From: the human T2T-CHM13v2.0 reference genome, Homo sapiens
Reading direction: 5' to 3' (one strand)
DNA: 64,000 nt
NCBI RefSeq assembly: GCF_009914755.1
Contig: NC_060944.1
Shown one piece after another: positions 20,605 through 57,129 of this stretch. The notes beneath the pieces are model-generated. The model ran no database searches. It was not told the DNA's origin and worked only from the letters and a program-made list of their open reading frames with translations. Position numbers and translations under genes: made by a program. Positions within the stretch are counted from its first letter, which is position 1. Each line of letters starts with the position of its first letter.

Positions 20605-22096
20605 TCATATTTTTGTCTTTTGTATTGTATAGTTACTACATTTAGTGTGGGATAGCTTTAATTTACCTTGTATTATGTATGTCTGAATCTGTAAATTCAC
20701 ATCTTTTATTAGTTCTGAGAAATTCTCAGATATCTTCAGATATTGCCTCTTCCCCATTCTCAATGTTCTCTCAGTCTAGAATTCCCAATCTATTCATCTG
20801 GATTTTCTATTAGTAGATTGGGAGACCTTCTCATTTTTATCTTCCTACCTTTTAATATGTCTTTCATAATTTCCATATTATGCTGAATTCTAGGTAGTAT
20901 CATCAGTTCCATATTCCAGTTCAAGTCCCTCATCAGATATTTCAAGTTTGCTTATTAACTCATCCATCGTGTCTTAAATTCAGTAGTTATTTTTATTTCA
21001 GGAAATTCCAATTTGCCTTGTCTCTTTTAATAATGTATTTTTCCCTGTGTGGATTTGGTTTCTCCTTGTGTGCTAGAATATCTTAAAAGAGACTTACTTT
21101 ATCTATCACTTGAAATTCTTGGAAAGATGCTTTCCCTGCTGACTGAGGCTCAGGGCAGGCCATTTCTTGGTAAATTTTAAAATTTTGAATGTCAACCTTT
21201 CTCCATGACACTTTAACTGAAAACTGTCATTATGCATTTCCTGAAGTGAGGATGCAGTACCAGGTACCCCTCGGAATCACTGACATGTCACCACTTTTTA
21301 TGTTAGTTCCTCAGTGTAGGAGTTTCCTAGCTGCACAAATACTAAAATCCCAAACCCCGGATCCACATGGTGCTGTGTTTTCAGCATAGAACTTTCCCAG
21401 CACCAGGCCAATGGGACCACCCCATGTTTTCCCTCACTGAACTGATGGGCAGGGTGATTCTGGATTCTGAGTTTTCACTGGATACGTTATTCTCTGAGCT
21501 TCCCGTCTTTGTTTGGGGGTCTGATTTCCACTCCCTTCTTGAGGGGACCCAGGCCCTGTCTCCTCTGCCCCCGCCACTAAACACATGCCCTGTTGCCAGG
21601 ACTGGCTTCTCTCCCCACACTGCGGCAGTATCAGCTTGGGCTTAAGGCTTCATATCTAACTTTCCTCCTTAATTCTAGCCCCTGAAGATTTCCCTTGCTT
21701 TCCTATGACCTTAGCTGTGGCTTAAAAAAATTGCTATGTTATGCAGCATACTTACATGCTTTATTGCAGGAAGTGTTTGAAGTGAGTCTGGCACCAGGTT
21801 TAAAACCAGTTTCTGCTGAGAAATTTGAAGATCTGGCAATATGACGTCTGTCTTTCAGCAGGACTAAAATTGGCTAGTGTCAGGGGGCATGTACTCTCTG
21901 TTCAGTCTCTAACTCATCACCTGTAATATTATTTTGACTCCTGTGTAGGCATTTATGATTCAGCATAATATATTCCACCTTTTACCCTTTTCCACAAAAT
22001 GGACCCTAACAGCATCCAGTTCATATCCCAGTTCTGTACCACAAGCCTTTGCTACTGATATAGGAGAATGGCAGCCATGAGGCACCATTGGTCTTT

Positions 22097-22133
<37 letters not shown>
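22097..22133. repeat. (TA)n microsatellite, expanded 5' target-site copy of the L1
   Basis: About 16 TA units following tttaaaa. Confidence 0.95.
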
Positions 22134-28053: not shown

Positions 28054-29727
28054 TTTTTTAGGACTTTGAGGCTCACTTTCATTGAAGCCCACTAGCCAAA
28101 GACCAATAGAAACACACTTATAGTCAAATGAAATTGGTTGAATTTAGCTGCTGCAGCAAGAAAATGGACTACATGGAATATTGGGAACATCTTCAGTAGG
28201 AGGAGAAGGTTCTTCAAGGATGGGGGCCTGTGCTAAATAATATTCTCGGGAGCAAGCAGGGGAGTGGCCGGCTCTGGACTGGTACTAGGGAGAAGCATCG
28301 ACACCTAGCAATGGGGACTCTTTGCAGTCTCTACAGGCAGTGGAGGAGCTGTCAGGGCTGGGACTGCCACTGTGAGAAAGGGCATGGCTCAGAAGCAGGG
28401 ATCGAGGGCAGCTTTGTAGCTGCAGGAGGGTTCTGCTGTGGAAACACGGTATATGGGCATTATCCTTGTCCCGTTGGCAACACTGTCACCAGCAGGGCTA
28501 AATTGCACTTTTTGTCTGGGGGATCAGCTAATCTTTCAGAAAAGTATTTTTGTACAAGAGAAATTCCTTGTTTCAAAACAAAGCTCACTTCTTGTGACGC
28601 TCTGGGCAGAAGGTGCTGGGAGCAGCTTCCTGGGTGGCCCTGCTCGTGTCCCAGCCTCTGGCTTCCTGCTAGTATTGATTCACAAGGGCCCTAAGGCCAT
28701 CACAGAGGACGTATCTCCATATTCACCACTTGAGCATACCTCCCAGCTCCATGTTTCACTCGTGAAACCATGGTCTTCAAAACATAAAATAATTTACCAA
28801 GAGAAACCAGTTTCTGTCTGTTGGCATCCTGGTGACAACAACGAGGACCATCACCACCTGTCTTCTGGCAACCACAGACACACCCCGAGGAAGCAGGGTG
28901 CTCCAGCAGGGTCTCTGGAGTGAGTACCCTCTTCCAATTTGGGTTTCTTGACCTTGCTAGGGCGGCGCAGCCCATTACTAGCTGGCAGAGAATAACTCAA
29001 GAGCAAATGGCCCCAGGAATAAACTTGAGATATTAACATGGAAATGCTGGATTGAAATGTGACTCATTTTCTCATCAGTCAGCACGCTGATTAACTAATT
29101 TCAGCTACTGATATTTTTTATGTTTCCCAGACTGAGCTGTTGCTCTGTTTCTCATCCACAGGTCCAGGAGGCAGTGTGAGAGTTTATGATGTTAATTAAT
29201 TACAAGATGGACCACGATACTGTCCGTGAAATTGTGTAGTCATTTCTGAACCTTTTGTAATAAAGAAACTGTGCTTCCATATTGAAGAAGCACTTAGTTA
29301 TAGGAAAAATGTGAGAAATAGTCACTTTTTGTTTTTATGCTTTTGGTTTATTTCAGCAAATCTGAGGTTTAGTAAAAACCAATGGCACAGGAAAAAGCAA
29401 GTCACTCCACCATTTTGTTTTTGTGGGTACTTAAGATCTCATGTTGCACCCTAAGGATTTTTAAATAGATCATTTATGATGTGAATGATGAGCTGGCCAT
29501 GTTGTCACTTCTGGGTTCACTTCTGTGAACTTGGGAAGGTTAGAAGCATAGTATTCTTCAAGTTTCTTTTTTACCCTCTTCCACAAAATGGATCCTGGCA
29601 ACAGCCAATCCACATCCCAGTTCTCTACCACGTGCCTTTATTATTGATACAGAGAATGGCAGCCATGTGGCTCCTTTGATCTTTTGGTAAAGTTGTATTA
29701 CTCATGCAACCCTCAGTGCATAGTGGA

Positions 29728-46719: not shown

Positions 46720-48144
46720 CTGGGGTACTGACTTAAACAAGTAATTTTTCCTCATTGATGGAGAGTTCATCTGTTTTCATCAGTGAAGTTCTTGACACAC
46801 ATGTTTGAGGATTCATTTGCGGCTGCTATTGGCAAAACATCACTCAGTTATTCATCAAGTGCTAATGGAACAGATGAATTGTACAGGATGCATCATCAGA
46901 ACTGCAAGGATGGTTGAGATCATGGCTGTGATGGGAGAGCCTGCAGTGCAGCCGCGATGACTTGTCCCCAGCAGAACCAGAGGGGCGTGGCCATGCTGTC
47001 ATCCAGGCCTGAGCTGGGCAGCCTGGGAGCCCAGATGACCAACTCTGCTCCAGAAAGAGGTGATATCTGAGTGTGGCCACGGGTGAAATTACCGGGGAGC
47101 CACATTCCCGTGGGTGTCAGCGCACTCAAAGGCCAATTCAGAATGGACATTTGTCTCCAGAGGCAGGGAGGAGTTGGGCATCCTGAGTCTTGCTGTGTTC
47201 CTCAAACACTCTCCAAGCAAGAAAGGCCCCACTGAATACGTCATTGCCACCCCATTCAGGAGACCCGGCTGCCTGGATCAGCTCCTTCAAGGCACTAAGA
47301 AGCGCTGTCTGTCTGTCTGGGAGCACTCCCTGGGCATATTGGAGATAGCCTCAGGCCCCATAGCCACCTCTGTGTTAGAAACCGGGTGTGCCCTTCCTAA
47401 ATATCCTCCGGGTTACGCCTGCTTACTCAGGTGAGCCAAGCTGAACAGCCTTCCACACACAGCCTGGAGAAGTGTCTGTACCTGAGAGGGACAAGTGAGA
47501 GCCCCAGCGCACTTTCATTCATCACTCCTACTGCCAGCATGGTCTCAGGCCCCCCATGTCTCTCAGGGAGGACCCTGTGATCTGAGCTGCTGAATGTGGA
47601 ATCCTCCAGCTGTGGGATGAGGCTACACATTTTGCCTCTTCATGACCCATTTTTCAAATAAAATACATAAAGCAGGGAACCATCACTGGGGCTCTGTTGG
47701 GTCCTGGACCCCAAAGTTTCCTGGAGGGCATCACACCCTTCTTACTGCCCAAAAGCACTTTGAGCAGTAGAGGACCACCGCATCTGTCAGTTGTCCACAC
47801 CACCAGGGCTTATTGTGCTTCTCCTTGTACCCATTCCTCATGCTGTTCACACATCCATCTGCCTGAACTGCCTCTATGATGATCACATCCCACTTAAGCC
47901 TTTCTTCCACATGCCTATTGCTTACTATGAGCCTCTAAATGAGACCCGCCCCTCCTAACTTTATCTCTCCAGCCTCCTCCTCTGCTTCCTAAACACTACC
48001 TATGCTGTTCCCTCTGCCTGGAACATCTCCCCTGCACAGCTTAACCTGTTGATTTTTTCAAACCTCTCTATTACAGAAAATTTCAAACACACATGAAAGG
48101 AGAGAGGATTCTATAATGAATCACATGCACCCATCAACCAACTT

Positions 48145-48430
48145 TGGTGGTCAGCCCACAGCCAGTCTTGTTTTCTCAGTATGGTATACACTCCTCCTTC
48201 AGTGGTCAGTCCACAGCCAGTCTTGTTTTCTCAGTATGGTATACAGCACACCTTCATTCATCACTCCTGCTGCCAGTCTTGTTTTCTCTGTATGGTATAC
48301 ACTCCTCCCTCAGTGGTCAGTCCACAGCCAGTCTTGTTTTCCCTGTATGGTATACAGCACACCTTCATTCATAACTCCTGCTGCCAGTCTTGTTTTCTCG
48401 GTATGGTATACACTCCTCCTTCAGTGATCA
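48145..48430. repeat. 55/56-bp alternating tandem array (111-bp dimer)
   Basis: gccagtcttgttttc at 48161, 48216, 48272, 48327 and 48383. Confidence 0.95.
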
Positions 48431-48440
48431 GAGATGGTCA

Positions 48441-48657
48441 GAGATGACCACAGGTAATGGCTGTCAGATGGGGCTCCAGATGGCACTGCTGGTGGGTTCA
48501 TCGGGGATCCCTGCTGTCCCACATCCCATGAGACAGAGAGGTCATTGGCAAGATGAAAGAGGGATGCCTGATCCTAGAGCCTCATGAGGCTGGAAGTGTA
48601 CTTGAGGGGGTACACTTTGGGAGGTGTTTCTGCCGTCACCTGTGGTTCCTTGACTTT
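48441..48657 (+). repeat. Dispersed direct duplicate of 54632-54835
   Basis: Hand alignment about 90% identical over ~204 nt. Confidence 0.93.
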
Positions 48658-48929
48658 CTGCTGTCATCTGTGGTTCCTTGACATCCTAGGATGTGAAGGA
48701 GGAGGAGGAATTCCAGATGAGAATTCCAATTGAGATGATCAGTGGTCAGCGCACAGTCTTCTTTTCTCGGTATGGTGTGCACTTCTCCTTCCTATCCAGA
48801 TGATTTTAAACAAGTCCCAGACAGTGTATCTTTTATTTCATCTGTAAATACTTTAGCATGAATCTCCACATAGATAGCTCTTCTTTTTATGTTTTATTTT
48901 AGTTCAGTTTAATTGAGTTTGTCTAATTT

Positions 48930-51835
<2,906 letters not shown>

Positions 51836-53920: not shown

Positions 53921-54400
53921 ATGGATGGCATCATTGAACAGAAGAGCATGCTGGTGCACAGTAAAATCAGTGATGCTGGCAAGAGGAATGGTTTAATTAA
54001 CACCAGAAACTTGATGGCCGAGAGCAGAGATGGTCTGGTGTCTGTTTACCCAGCGCCCCAGTACCAGAGCCACCGGGTGGGGGCCAGCACAGTGCCGGCC
54101 AGCCTGGACAGCAGCAGGAGTGAGCCGATGCAGCAGCTGCTGGACCCCAACACCCTGCAGCAGTCAGTGGAGTCCCGCTACCGGCCCAACATCATCCTCT
54201 ATTCAGAGGGCGTGCTGCGCTCCTGGGGGGACGGTGTGGCCGCCGACTGCTGCGAGACCACCTTCATCGAGGACCGGTCGCCCACCAAAGACAGCCTCGA
54301 GTACCCGGATGGGAAGTTCATTGACCTCTCAGCTGATGACATAAAAATCCACACCCTGTCCTACGATGTGGAGGAGGAGGAGGAGTTCCAGGAGCTGGAG
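53921..54400 (+). CDS. SYNDIG1: SYNDIG1 first coding exon, aa 1-160 (N-terminal region; the CD225/dispanin membrane domain is encoded by exons beyond the window)
   Basis: Translation MDGIIEQKSMLVHSKISDAGKRNGL...YDVEEEEEFQELE recognised as the human SYNDIG1 N-terminus. Kozak accATGg, CpG-rich codons, donor GAG|GTCAGA at 54400/54401 after exactly 480 nt (phase 0). Confidence 0.96.
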
Positions 54401-57129
54401 GTCAGAGGATGTGTTTGTCAGAGGCCCTCTAGGAATGTGTGATGGGGATTCTAGGGAGGGCAGGAGCCATGAATGCCTGGCAAAAGTTAGGGAATGAAAC
54501 TAGTGTGCAAAAATGCAGAAACCAAAGGCAGTCTTGGTGCCCTTCACTCTTGAGTGCTTATGGAAGATAGAAGGAGAGGAAAGACTTAGATTAACAGAAA
54601 CCCAGGGGCGCTTCAGCGGTGATTCTGGTATGAGATGACCCCAGGTAATGGCTGCAGATGGCAGTGCTGGTGGGTTCATCGGTTTTCCCTGCTCTCCCGC
54701 ATCCCATGAGACAGAGAGGTCATTGACAAGATGAGAGAGGGACACCTGATCCTAGAGCCACATGAGGCTGGAAATATACTTGACAGGGGACACTTTGGGA
54801 GGTGCTTCTACTGTCACCTGTGGTTCCTTGACTTTGCATTCCACAGTTACTACTGAGAGATTGTTGATAGAGCTGAACTGTGCTGGAAGAAAGTGTAGGT
54901 ACTGATAGCCTGAAGGGAAGATAAGTTGACTTCTTAGATGACTCGCTTCTTTAATGGACTGGAGGGCAGGTGACAGCATTTGAATTACATGCACAGAGAT
55001 GTACACACTGCACGTTGGATATAGTGTGGTAGGCACAGTGGTTGCTGAGTGTGTGGCACATTGTCCCCCCAGGACAGCACTGGTGAGAGGGTGAGAGCAG
55101 CTGCTGCAGGCCATGGACTAGCGGTTTGCTGCCCATGCCTCCCAAGTCATTCCACTGCAGTGAGGCCAGGGGTGTTTTCCCAGGACGCGATGTCAGGGAA
55201 ACACGTGCCAGGCTTTCCGTCAGTTTGGTGGGGAAGGAAACCGCCGAGCAGGTCCAACCTTCAGAGGCAGTGTGTGGCCAAAAGGGGAAGGGATGTCTGT
55301 TTTTCACTAAGGTAGGCGAGAACATTTTTGTAGGTGGAGAGGAAATGTTCAGAATGGAAAATTCAGGATCGTGGCCAGCAGCTGGGGAGTGGTCTTGGGG
55401 AGGCAGGAGCTGAACTCCAAGCATGTATGTGTGAGAGCTGGCCTCTCAGAAGAAGTCCACATGCTGGCCTGGGAGAGAAGAGAAGGGTGGGGTAAGGGAA
55501 AGTTTGAAGGGCTCTGGGTTGAAGAGGAAGAAAAGGAGGGGTTCGTGTTGGCTGAGCATCAGCACAGCCAGAGAAGCTCCTGGGGTGTGAGGAGATTGCA
55601 GACAGTCTAGAGCAATGAACTGGGGGAAGTGCCCATTCTAGAAAAGACTCCTGGAGAAACTGCCCAGCTGCAGTATGAGTTTGTGTGAAGATCTGGTCAG
55701 ACCCAGGGCTCTGTGACTTTCTGCAGCCATGTGGGACCATCTTTAGCAGGTGAGGCTCCCTTGGCAAGGTGCACTCTGCCTGGAAGGTGGAGGAGGCAGG
55801 AGAAAGCAATAGGGAGGAAGTTTGGAGCAGAATCAGACCCACAACCATGGGACCCCACACTTGATAGAAAGGCCGGAGAAATTGCAAGGGAATGACAGGC
55901 CAAGGAGACCAGAGGATCAGGATTGGAGAGACCCCATTGAGAACCAGGAGCTGAGAGATCCAGCGTTAGTCAGGAGGGAGGATTAGAAATGGAGAGGGAA
56001 ACTTTGGTGCAACTCCAGCCGGTGGAGCCCGGGAAGCCCACTGGCAGGGAGTGGAGAGTCGTGGCATGGAAGAGGACCAAGACGTGATGCCTGGGCATCT
56101 GCGCAGGCCCCAATGCCCTCTGGTGACACCTGTGAAGGGAGGGCACTCACGCTGCAGCTGTGGAAAGTTGGGAGCATGCTTGGCTTCTGTTCAGAAGCCT
56201 CTGCCCTGTCTACTAAGTTTTCCAAGATCTGAGGGCTTTGCTGACAGCAAAGCGTAAATGCTGCCCGACTCGCATGGAGTGGAATTAGAGAGGCAGATGC
56301 ACGAAAATGCAGCCCCAGGAGTTATGGGAATGGAATACCCCATCAGCTCTGAAGAGGGTCTGGGGCCCTGAGCTCAATGCGGGGTTCAGAAGTCATCACA
56401 CAGGCAGGAGCCCTCCCCCGGCTGAGTCTTGAGGATGAGTAAGAGGAGGCTTGAGGGGAGCTTAAATAAAAGCTAGGAATGGGTGGGGGCAGACACAGAC
56501 TTGTCTGTCTTAGTAGGTCCAAGGCTCTGACAAGTAGTATAGACTTCTGGGGAGGTAACCTTTCCCACCCAGTCCTGCTTCTCTGATCTAGCAGCAGAAG
56601 TGGAAGCCCACCAGAAACAATTCTTTTAATAATACAGCAATAAGAATCTTTAGTCATAATAACGGTGCCTACTCTGTATTAATATTTCTAGTGACTTTTG
56701 AATATAACGTAAGATGGAGCATGTTGGCATTTATACTAAAGTAACATCGATGAAACAGCAAGTTGTTTACTTAGGCACTTTAGTGAGACTTTCTGGTCGG
56801 CTTCCAAGGAGCTCACCTGGACCAAGAAATGGCCCCTTCCACAGGCTCTGAGCAGAAGGAATGGAGACACATTATGGCTGCTGCTGCTTCTACATGCGGC
56901 TCAGGATGCCGAGGAGGATTTCAGAGCCTCACCACGGTGGTTAACTTCGTCCTTTTTCTCTGAAAACAAAGATTTTCTCAGAAACATTCTTACAGTATAG
57001 CTATGGTGCTTTTCATTCCCTTCTTCGGTAATTAACAAAATACTAATGACTGGTTAGAAGTGTCATTGAACATGCAGTAGCTGTTCTTTGGTTTACTGTT
57101 TTCTCCATTCCATTAAATAATAAAGGGTC

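What the first reader, a model, noticed from the sequence alone, without database searches (positions are those of the whole stretch)
48420..48795. Patchwork insertion copied from the SYNDIG1 exon and its downstream intron, ~6 kb away
Seen: 48441-48657 is a direct copy of 54632-54835 (about 20 mismatches in ~204 nt by hand). It is followed by a 28-bp stutter (48627-48654 / 48655-48682) and then by tcctaggatgtgaaggaggaggaggaattccag (48684-48716), which matches coding sequence 54359-54391 (SYDVEEEEEFQ) at 30/33. The two donor pieces appear in swapped order. Micro-stutters sit at the junctions (tcagagatg twice, cagatgg twice, aattcca twice), and the local array unit resumes at ~48738. There is no poly-A and no TSD. 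Inference: this is an old iterative template-switching scar (FoSTeS/MMBIR or polymerase-theta-type templated insertion) copied from the exon region, because the donor copies lack the stutters and one donor is conserved coding DNA.
Basis: partly seen in the sequence, partly recalled or inferred. Interest (0 to 1): 0.8.

Follow-up and report, generated by a model that had tools for sequence, protein, structure and literature searches.

The report
Fossil template-switch insertion in SYNDIG1 intron
A 307-base patch copied long ago from a SYNDIG1 exon and its neighbouring intron sits inside an old LINE-1 relic 6 kb upstream, and its scars point to an error-prone DNA repair polymerase that kept jumping between templates.

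Summary
48435-48657 copies 54626-54835 (84% over 223 columns). 48684-48716 copies exon bases 54359-54391 (30/33). The two donor pieces appear in swapped order. In the 3.1-Gb assembly each piece has only these two copies, so the interspersed-repeat refutation fails.

The recipient is the 3' UTR of a minus-strand LINE-1. Eight aligned paralogues carry one array unit and no insert.

New here:
- The insert (48432-48738, 307 nt) is flanked by an 11-nt direct repeat, so "no TSD" is inexact.
- The same array holds a second patch, 48244-48276, templated from 47505-47537.
- 12 of the 26 copy/donor mismatches lie in perfect inverted repeats that exist only with the copy's bases. The donor side has none, and 0 of 5000 simulations reach 12.
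- An intact array junction matches the donor just upstream of the copied block at 12/15 (P=0.006).

Together with four short tandem stutters, this is the known signature of template-switch-prone repair synthesis of the MMBIR/FoSTeS class. The polymerase, the age (roughly 25-55 My) and whether it was a single event remain inferred, because no primate outgroups were available. It is a new member of a known kind.

The parts
48065..50635 (-). Host element: 3' part of an old LINE-1 (end of ORF2 plus 3' UTR). The array and the insert lie about 90-700 nt from its 3' end.
   Evidence: The minus-strand ORF 50345-50635 matches human LINE-1 ORF2p residues 778-856, E=7e-22. The left flank 48030-48210 has at least 14 dispersed copies at 71-88% identity. 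The 3' boundary near 48065 is read from where 8 paralogues start to align. An Alu-like masked block interrupts the element at 50542-50905 (hub table).
48147..48431 (+). Tandem array made from one segment of the LINE-1 3' UTR (55-nt units, 111-nt higher-order period).
   Evidence: TRF: period 55 x5.1 at 78% and period 111 x2.4 at 95%. Paralogues have a single unit.
47505..47537 (+). Template of the second, short patch (Z2).
   Evidence: 30/33 and 29/33 to the two array copies. 47470-47570 finds only itself genome-wide.
48244..48276 (+). Z2 patch, copy 1. About 26 nt of non-LINE-1 sequence replaces the end of one unit and the start of the next. CA on the left and GCCAG on the right are shared with the template.
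48355..48387 (+). Z2 patch, copy 2, carried along by the 111-nt duplication.
   Evidence: 1 difference from copy 1
48421..48431 (+). Left copy of the 11-nt flanking direct repeat (TCAGTGATCAG).
48432..48738 (+). The whole insert (307 nt, GC 0.52).
48428..48447 (+). 10-nt stutter across the entry junction (TCAGAGATGG/TCAGAGATGA). Alternatively it is the start of the copied block after the 12/15 homeology.
   Evidence: TRF; alignments
48435..48657 (+). Piece B: copy of intron bases 54626-54835.
48459..48483 (+). 12/13-nt stutter inside piece B. The donor has one copy, at 54650-54661.
48627..48682 (+). 28-nt stutter of the end of piece B, ending at the B|A junction.
48675..48700 (.). 26-nt inverted repeat (13-nt arms, no spacer, 12 of 13 pairs) centred on the B|A junction. 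It contains the perfect 14-nt palindrome 48681-48694.
48684..48716 (+). Piece A: copy of coding bases 54359-54391 (SYDVEEEEEFQ in the exon; the copy reads a stop at the Tyr codon).
48708..48733 (+). 13-nt stutter across the exit from piece A.
48732..48738 (+). GAGATGA: the same 7 nt as the start of piece B (48441-48447; donor 54632-54638). Possible third short copy (B').
48739..48795 (+). Right copy of the 11-nt repeat followed by the last, most diverged array unit. After it the LINE-1 sequence continues.
54626..54835 (+). Donor of piece B, 226-435 nt into the intron after the coding exon. It has no stutters and no perfect inverted repeats at the mismatch sites.
54611..54625 (+). Donor sequence CTTCAGCGGTGATTC directly upstream of the copied block. 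It matches an intact array junction at 12/15.
   Evidence: shuffle P=0.006
54359..54391 (+). Donor of piece A, 10-42 nt before the end of the SYNDIG1 coding exon.
   Evidence: hub gene table

Best explanation
This is the fixed scar of one DNA-level repair or replication-restart episode of the MMBIR/FoSTeS/SDSA class.

Proposed sequence of events (inferred):
1. A broken or stalled 3' end lay in a tandemly repeated part of a LINE-1 3' UTR in the SYNDIG1 intron.
2. It paired with a homeologous 15-mer 6.2 kb downstream and copied about 210 nt of intron.
3. It let go, re-primed 476 nt further back in the coding exon and copied 33 nt.
4. It possibly touched the start of the first template again for 7-9 nt.
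5. It returned to the array 11 nt behind its point of departure.

The polymerase was poorly processive. It re-copied short stretches, giving four stutters. It repeatedly used the nascent strand's own hairpins as template, which turned imperfect inverted repeats into perfect ones.

Shown: the copies, their uniqueness, the direction of copying, the stutters, the flanking repeat, and the excess of inverted-repeat-perfecting differences.
Inferred: the order of the steps, that they were simultaneous, and the enzyme.

The insert has no annotated function and is best read as neutral.
For: (1) Both pieces are single-copy and have their only other copy within 480 nt of each other, 5.7-6.2 kb away on the same strand. 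In a self-comparison of the window only 6 dispersed two-copy pairs exist, and these are two of them.

(2) The recipient is a LINE-1 3' UTR. 8 of 8 aligned paralogues go from one unit straight to the right flank. Those 8 were picked from 14 fetched; 6 were dropped because their right flank aligned weakly.

(3) An intact array junction matches the donor 54611-54625 at 12/15, with shuffle P=0.006.

(4) 12 of 26 mismatch sites over 243 aligned columns lie in perfect inverted repeats or palindromes that vanish when donor bases are put in. There are 0 such sites on the donor side. The simulation mean is 1.10 and 0 of 5000 runs reach 12. Narrower definitions give P=0.0018 and P=0.0004-0.0076.

(5) Two perfect palindromes of 14 nt or more lie in 307 nt, against 0.19 expected from the window.

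(6) A 26-nt inverted repeat lies exactly on the B|A junction.

(7) There are four short tandem duplications absent from the donor. Three are TRF-detected in 323 nt against 0.27 expected, P=0.003. Their halves differ by 7-15%, like the copy/donor divergence of 10%.

(8) A second patch in the same array, 48244-48276 from 47505-47537, has CA and GCCAG shared at its edges and the same divergence of about 9%.

(9) The literature describes this combination:
- Germline templated insertions with up to five templates, and microhomeology (PMC8421209, passages).
- Repair synthesis giving quasipalindrome mutations and microhomology-mediated template switches (bioRxiv 10.1101/2023.08.09.552703, abstract).
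- Thousands of local template switches over the whole human-chimp comparison (PMC5453318, abstract). By my arithmetic this is far too few to put about 5 into 300 nt by background.
Against: - The inverted-repeat test was devised after I saw the palindromes, so it is post hoc.
- Without an outgroup the polarity of the differences in piece B is unknown. Only the TAC to TAG change is surely derived in the copy.
- Junctions B-to-A and A-to-next show no significant microhomeology (P=0.48 and 0.97), and one orphan base (48683) sits at B|A.
- With the present-day left flank rather than an intact unit, the entry homeology is not significant (P=0.20).
- Stutter density is also high just outside the insert: 3 TRF rows in 48898-49146. 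The placement of stutters at junctions is not significant by my estimate.
- The array does not fold unusually as single-stranded DNA (z=+0.37), so no fork barrier is evident.
- The array units to the left are only 2-7% apart, so part of the structure is younger or has been homogenised.
Confidence: 0.6

Rival explanations
1. Polymerase-theta-mediated end joining of a double-strand break. Iterative annealing, short synthesis, dissociation and snap-back copying produced the templated filler.
For: - Stutters lie at or across junctions.
- A spacer-less 26-nt inverted repeat on the B|A junction looks like snap-back synthesis.
- Two junctions have little or no microhomology.
- Hairpin-templated changes are present.
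Against: From recall, no call: polymerase theta fillers are mostly under 30-50 nt and are copied from within tens to hundreds of bases of the break. Here one block is about 210 nt, from 6.2 kb away. The sequence alone cannot name the polymerase, so this is a variant of the best explanation rather than its opposite.
Confidence: 0.15
2. Capture of free DNA fragments. Two separate fragments released from the exon/intron region were ligated into a break by end joining. The stutters and palindromes arose later.
For: - The order of the pieces is arbitrary (swapped).
- There is an orphan base at 48683.
- Microhomology is weak at two junctions.
Against: - It does not explain the 12/15 entry homeology, the 11-nt flanking duplication, or the excess of inverted-repeat-perfecting changes found on the copy only.
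- Both fragments would have to land in direct orientation and come from within 480 nt of each other.
Confidence: 0.08
3. RNA-templated patch (class 2 templated sequence insertion). Unspliced SYNDIG1 pre-mRNA was reverse-transcribed, or used directly, to bridge a break in the gene's own upstream intron.
For: - Both donors lie in one primary transcript and are in the sense orientation (hub gene table).
- There is no poly(A), no AATAAA and no TTTT/A site, as described for class 2 events (PMC5110952, passages).
Against: - There is no splice junction or other RNA mark.
- The swapped order needs a backward jump on the RNA.
- Class 2 events are described as lacking target duplications, whereas an 11-nt repeat flanks this insert.
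- From recall, not tested: SYNDIG1 is mainly a brain gene, so pre-mRNA in the germ line is not expected to be abundant.
Confidence: 0.07
4. Copying from, or reintegration of, a small extrachromosomal circle derived from 54359-54835. On a circle the order B then A, then the start of B again, is natural.
For: - The order is B-A, followed by GAGATGA, which is also the start of B.
- If one 13-nt stutter unit is removed, the text after piece A reads as 9 nt of donor 54630-54638 (my reading).
Against: - A circle of the contiguous segment would include 54392-54625, which is absent, so an extra deletion is needed.
- The 7-nt match is short; my rough chance estimate is about 0.01, with no call.
- It does not by itself explain the hairpin-type changes.
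Confidence: 0.06
5. Not an insertion event at all: a chance similarity, an interspersed repeat, or the decayed remnant of a larger colinear segmental duplication or retrocopy.
For: None beyond the low-complexity GGA run inside the 33-mer.
Against: - Each piece has two copies only in 3.1 Gb, and the reversed control gives 0.
- E=9e-69 for piece B.
- The order is swapped, so it is not colinear.
- There is no poly(A).
Confidence: 0.02

Closest known systems
Microhomology-mediated break-induced replication / fork stalling and template switching: templated insertions (MMB-TI; Osia et al. 2021, PMC8421209)
   Same: - The insert is copied from nearby templates.
- Several templates are used in one event.
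- There is microhomeology at an entry point.
- Synthesis returns to the original template.
- Such events are known to persist as germline or evolutionary variants (passages read).
   Different: - The main block (about 210 nt) and its distance (6.2 kb) are larger than the short, within-100-bp events that define the yeast signature.
- Two of the junctions lack clear microhomology.
- This one is old and fixed, and one of its templates is coding sequence of the host gene.
Mutagenic double-strand-break repair synthesis with quasipalindrome correction (Sugawara et al. 2023 preprint, abstract; Hicks et al. 2010, recalled)
   Same: The triad of strand dissociation and re-alignment is present: slippage, quasipalindrome perfection and microhomology-mediated switches to another template (abstract).
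   Different: That system was shown in yeast gene conversion with a homologous donor. Here there is no long homology, and the evidence is a sequence fossil.
Short local template switches in primate genomes (Loytynoja and Goldman 2017, PMC5453318)
   Same: Clusters of nearby substitutions create perfect hairpins (abstract). Examples here are 48505-48507, 48596/48598/48611 and 48439/48440/48450.
   Different: Those are isolated events scattered over the genome. Here about five are packed into one 307-nt insert and are absent from its template.
Templated sequence insertion polymorphisms, classes 1 and 2 (Onozawa and Aplan 2016, PMC5110952)
   Same: A patch templated from elsewhere in the genome is inserted at a presumed break. 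It has no poly(A) and no LINE-1 endonuclease site, as in class 2.
   Different: - It has a flanking 11-nt duplication, which is a class 1 trait.
- It has two templates in swapped order.
- The donor is only 6 kb away in cis.
- There is no sign of an RNA intermediate.

Membership tests
MMBIR/FoSTeS-type templated insertion | The inserted sequence has an identifiable template elsewhere in the genome. | tested here: met
MMBIR/FoSTeS-type templated insertion | Microhomology or microhomeology at the junctions. | tested here: inconclusive
   At the entry, an intact array junction matches the donor at 12/15 (P=0.006). This falls to P=0.20 with the present-day flank. B-to-A gives P=0.48 and A-to-next gives P=0.97.
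MMBIR/FoSTeS-type templated insertion | More than one template used in series, with return to the original template. | tested here: met
   The order is B, then A, then possibly B', then the array. A second patch lies in the same array.
MMBIR/FoSTeS-type templated insertion | Error-prone synthesis: extra point changes or small indels in and near the copied tract. | tested here: met
   There are four stutters. 12 of 26 differences perfect inverted repeats on the copy only. Whether they arose at the time of copying is inferred.
MMBIR/FoSTeS-type templated insertion | Dependence on replication or break-induced replication factors. | not testable with these tools
   Needs genetics.
Polymerase-theta end-joining filler | Short filler copied from close to the break (feature as recalled). 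| tested here: not met
   The block is about 210 nt, from 6.2 kb away.
Polymerase-theta end-joining filler | Snap-back inverted copies at the junction. | tested here: inconclusive
   A 26-nt inverted repeat lies on the B|A junction. However, its right arm is also the exon copy.
Class 1 templated sequence insertion / LINE-1-mediated retrocopy | Target-site duplication of 5 bp or more. | tested here: met
   An 11-nt repeat, 10/11 identical. It is ambiguous inside an array.
Class 1 templated sequence insertion / LINE-1-mediated retrocopy | A poly(A) tail with an upstream AATAAA, and a TTTT/A insertion site. | tested here: not met
   None found in 48400-48800.
Class 2 templated sequence insertion (RNA or cDNA patch) | No target duplication, with end-joining marks (microdeletion, non-templated bases). 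| tested here: inconclusive
   An orphan base is present at 48683, but so is a flanking 11-nt repeat.
Class 2 templated sequence insertion (RNA or cDNA patch) | An RNA intermediate. | not testable with these tools
   The donors are within the SYNDIG1 primary transcript (hub table). No splice junction is included.
Interspersed repeat / transposable element | Many dispersed copies. | tested here: not met
   Two copies only. In contrast, the host flank has at least 14 copies.
Segmental duplication or processed retrocopy | A colinear copy of the source; for a retrocopy, intron loss and poly(A). | tested here: not met
   The order is swapped, 234 nt are skipped, and intron sequence is included. There is no poly(A).

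The most novel reading that the evidence does not exclude
The whole 650-nt structure was built in a single germline replication-repair episode. That structure comprises the unit duplications of the LINE-1 segment, the three patches templated from -0.74, +5.7 and +6.2 kb, the four stutters, and about five hairpin-templated correction events. All three patches are about 9-10% diverged from their templates. On this reading it is a miniature chromoanasynthesis preserved for tens of millions of years. Nearly half of the apparent divergence of the copy would then be birth defects rather than age. Such fossils could be used to read the error spectrum of human-lineage break-induced synthesis, and divergence-based dating of small duplications would be biased upwards.
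Probability: 0.22. Interest if true: 0.6.

Novelty: new member of a known kind. Interest (0 to 1): 0.4.

Why it matters
Complex templated insertions are well known in patients, tumours and polymorphism catalogues. Fixed ancient examples whose template survives next door are useful because copy and template can be compared base by base. Here that comparison suggests the copying itself introduced a large share of the differences: stutters and perfected hairpins.

If confirmed with outgroups, two things follow. It gives a direct view of the fidelity of this repair pathway in the primate germ line. It also warns that divergence between small local duplicates can overstate their age.

No function is implied. 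The insert lies in an intron, overlaps no annotated exon or functional element in the hub table, and the coding fragment carries a stop.

Tried and rejected
- Pfam scan of five short minus-strand ORFs gave nothing useful. One ORF (49351-49566) also had no PDB match. A third ORF gave the LINE-1 ORF2p match.
- blastn did not carry the LINE-1 paralogues across the array. Local alignments and a MAFFT fragment alignment were used instead. The family name of the LINE-1 was not determined, because no repeat library was available.
- Single-stranded DNA folding of the array showed no unusual structure (z=+0.37), so 'structured array as fork barrier' has no support. The insert folds somewhat better than shuffles (z=-1.98, 2 of 100). 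The donor block does not (z=+0.76).
- A 12-mer scan of 48100-48830 against the window found no further convincing templates. A 13-nt minus-strand match to exon 54111-54123 is at chance level by my arithmetic.
- A literature search for SYNDIG1 with 'template switch' found 2 papers, 1 listed, irrelevant. I found nothing in print on this insert with that one search.
- Rejected: interspersed repeat, chance match, colinear duplication, retrocopy (see rivals).
- No primate or other mammalian sequences are reachable with these tools, so the empty-site test by orthology was not done.

Full report
**Observation**

- 48435-48657 matches 54626-54835 at 84.3% over 223 columns (22 mismatches, one 13-nt gap, E=9e-69).
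- 48684-48716 matches 54359-54391 at 30/33 (E=7e-7).
- Both matches are in direct orientation, and the order is swapped relative to the donor.
- From 48442 the ungapped alignment is 180/200 identical (11 transitions, 9 transversions, K2P 0.108).
- TRF finds the 28-nt stutter at 48627-48682, a 10-nt stutter at 48428-48446 and a 13-nt stutter at 48708-48735.
- A fourth stutter, of 12/13 nt at 48459-48483, shows as the 13-nt gap in the alignment. The donor has that unit once, at 54650.
- The array text resumes at 48739.
- 48400-48800 has no poly(A) signal, no A or T run of six or more, and no TTTTA/TAAAA.

**Chance or repeat family**

The window's own 3.1-Gb assembly was searched.
- The 286-nt insert query finds only itself and the donor.
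- The 600-nt donor query finds only itself and the insert.
- The 33-mer with up to three mismatches finds exactly two places, itself and the exon. The reversed control finds none.
- The tool warns that its counts are lower bounds.
- In a self-comparison of the window, only six dispersed two-copy pairs exist at E<1e-4. Three are LINE-1 against LINE-1, one is noted below, and two are these.

**The recipient site**

The flank 48030-48210 is itself an interspersed repeat, with at least 14 dispersed copies at 71-88% identity. A minus-strand ORF at 50345-50635 matches human LINE-1 ORF2p residues 778-856 at E=7e-22. Counting on from there, ORF2 should end near 49120. The stretch from about 49120 down to about 48065 is then the 3' UTR of a minus-strand LINE-1.

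Of the 14 paralogues fetched, I aligned the 8 whose right flank could be placed. L016, L018, L019, L020, L022 and L024 were dropped. In all 8, the left flank is followed by one unit and then directly by the right flank. The first unit of the window (48147-48201) and its last unit (48739-48795) align to the same columns.

The array is therefore a local expansion of one LINE-1 segment, and the 307-nt block is an insertion into it. This gives an empty site by paralogy, though not by orthology. Together with the TAG in the copy where the constitutive exon has TAC, it fixes the direction: the exon region is the donor.

**Anatomy**

- The insert is 48432-48738 (307 nt).
- It is flanked by TCAGTGATCAG (48421-48431) and TCAGTGGTCAG (48739-48749). 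'No TSD' is therefore inexact, although in a 55-nt-period array this may equally be a return to a neighbouring unit.
- Reading left to right:
  1. A 20-nt zone with two readings: either a 10-nt stutter across the junction, or the start of the copied block.
  2. Piece B, with its internal 12/13-nt stutter and its terminal 28-nt stutter.
  3. One orphan base (48683).
  4. Piece A.
  5. A 13-nt stutter across the exit from A.
  6. GAGATGA (48732-48738), which is also the first 7 nt of piece B (48441-48447; donor 54632).
- If one 13-nt unit is removed, the text after A reads as 9 nt of donor 54630-54638. The order may therefore be B-A-B'. This is my reading and is only suggestive.

**Junction pairing**

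- An intact array junction (CTTCAGTGGTCAGTC) matches the donor sequence immediately upstream of the copied block (54611-54625) at 12/15, with shuffle P=0.006.
- With the present-day, truncated left flank the test is not significant (P=0.20).
- The B-to-A and A-to-next junctions show no significant homeology (P=0.48 and 0.97).

**The new signature**

The copy contains perfect palindromes at 48504-48511, 48578-48591, 48681-48694 and 48707-48714. None of them exists if the donor's bases are put back at the mismatch sites.

With hairpins included (arms of 6 or more, loop of 10 or less), further perfect stems appear only with the copy's bases:
- 48435-40 / 48445-50
- 48594-601 / 48610-17
- 48707-13 / 48721-27

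Over the full column map (243 columns, 26 mismatches):
- 12 mismatch sites lie in such copy-only inverted repeats.
- None lies in a donor-only repeat, in either context.
- Random substitution of 26 sites on the donor-state sequence gives a mean of 1.10, and 0 of 5000 runs reach 12.
- Narrower definitions give P=0.0018 and P=0.0004-0.0076.

Other points in the same direction:
- A 26-nt inverted repeat with no spacer sits exactly on the B|A junction.
- All three differences in piece A improve an inverted repeat (48689, 48696, 48710).
- Two of the perfect palindromes of 14 nt or more in the 64-kb window lie in these 307 nt. That compares with 0.19 expected counting every hit (P=0.016). By my count's list, about ten non-simple loci exist in all.
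- As single-stranded DNA the insert folds better than shuffles (z=-1.98), whereas the donor block does not (z=+0.76).

Caveats: the test was designed after I had seen the palindromes. Polarity in piece B needs an outgroup.

**A second patch**

The variant array units carry 48244-48276, and its duplicate at 48355-48387. This matches 47505-47537, 0.74 kb upstream and outside the LINE-1, at 30/33 and 29/33.
- The template region finds only itself genome-wide.
- The patch is bounded by CA and GCCAG, which are shared by the array and the template. Bounds that short cannot be significant on their own.
- Its divergence is about 9%, equal to that of pieces A (9%) and B (10%).

**Relative ages**

- The last unit differs from the left units by 14-21%.
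- The patches differ from their templates by 9-10%.
- The stutter halves differ by 7-15%.
- The 111-nt repeats differ by 4.5%, and unit 1 from unit 2 by 2.4%.

The insert therefore entered an already duplicated segment, and the left part later expanded or was homogenised.

Using recalled substitution rates (about 1-2.2e-9 per site per year), K2P 0.108 gives about 25-55 My. If the 12 inverted-repeat sites were made at birth, the remaining divergence of about 5-6% points to the lower end of that range.

**Mechanism**

The combination seen here is:
- cis templates within 6 kb;
- serial switches with return to the origin;
- an entry homeology;
- short re-copying;
- perfected quasipalindromes on the copy only.

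This is what is described for template-switch-prone repair synthesis:
- Germline templated insertions with up to five templates and microhomeology (PMC8421209, passages).
- Dissociation and re-alignment giving quasipalindrome mutations and microhomology-mediated switches during break repair (bioRxiv 10.1101/2023.08.09.552703, abstract).
- Hairpin-creating local switches in primate genomes, thousands over the whole human-chimp comparison (PMC5453318, abstract). By my arithmetic that is orders of magnitude too rare to place about five in 300 nt by background.

I therefore favour one MMBIR/FoSTeS/SDSA-class episode (0.6). Polymerase theta end joining is a variant I cannot exclude (0.15). Fragment capture, an RNA patch (class 2 of PMC5110952) and a small circle are lesser rivals. 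FoSTeS, MMBIR, theta filler sizes, microDNA and SYNDIG1 expression are cited from recall.

**Verdict**

This is a new member of a known kind, of moderate interest. The decisive test, orthologous sites in other primates, could not be run here.

Noticed in passing
window 21934-22096 and 29516-29684: Another direct two-copy pair in the same intron: 82% over 117 nt, extending weakly to about 165 nt, 7.6 kb apart. These are its only two copies in the assembly. The first copy abuts an (AT)n run at 22100-22133 and what looks, from recall, like the 5' end of a plus-strand LINE-1. It may be a second local templated copy or an old small duplication.
   Followed up: partly
window 48244-48276, 48355-48387 and 47505-47537: A short patch in the array is templated from unique sequence 0.74 kb upstream and bounded by shared CA and GCCAG. 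Two of its three differences make the ends CAGCA...TGCTG complementary. With 5-nt arms and a 19-nt loop this is weak, and it is my reading.
   Followed up: partly
window 48451-48461 and 54642-54652: Both the copy and the donor carry CAGGTAATGG, which resembles a 5' splice site (resemblance recalled). No annotated exon uses either site according to the hub table.
   Followed up: no
window 48898-49146: Three short tandem duplications (periods 10-11) lie in the LINE-1 3' UTR just right of the array. Local stutter density is therefore high outside the insert as well, which weakens the stutter-enrichment argument.
   Followed up: no
window 50542-50905: A masked block interrupts the LINE-1 ORF2 region. 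ORF translations there look Alu-like (recall).
   Followed up: no
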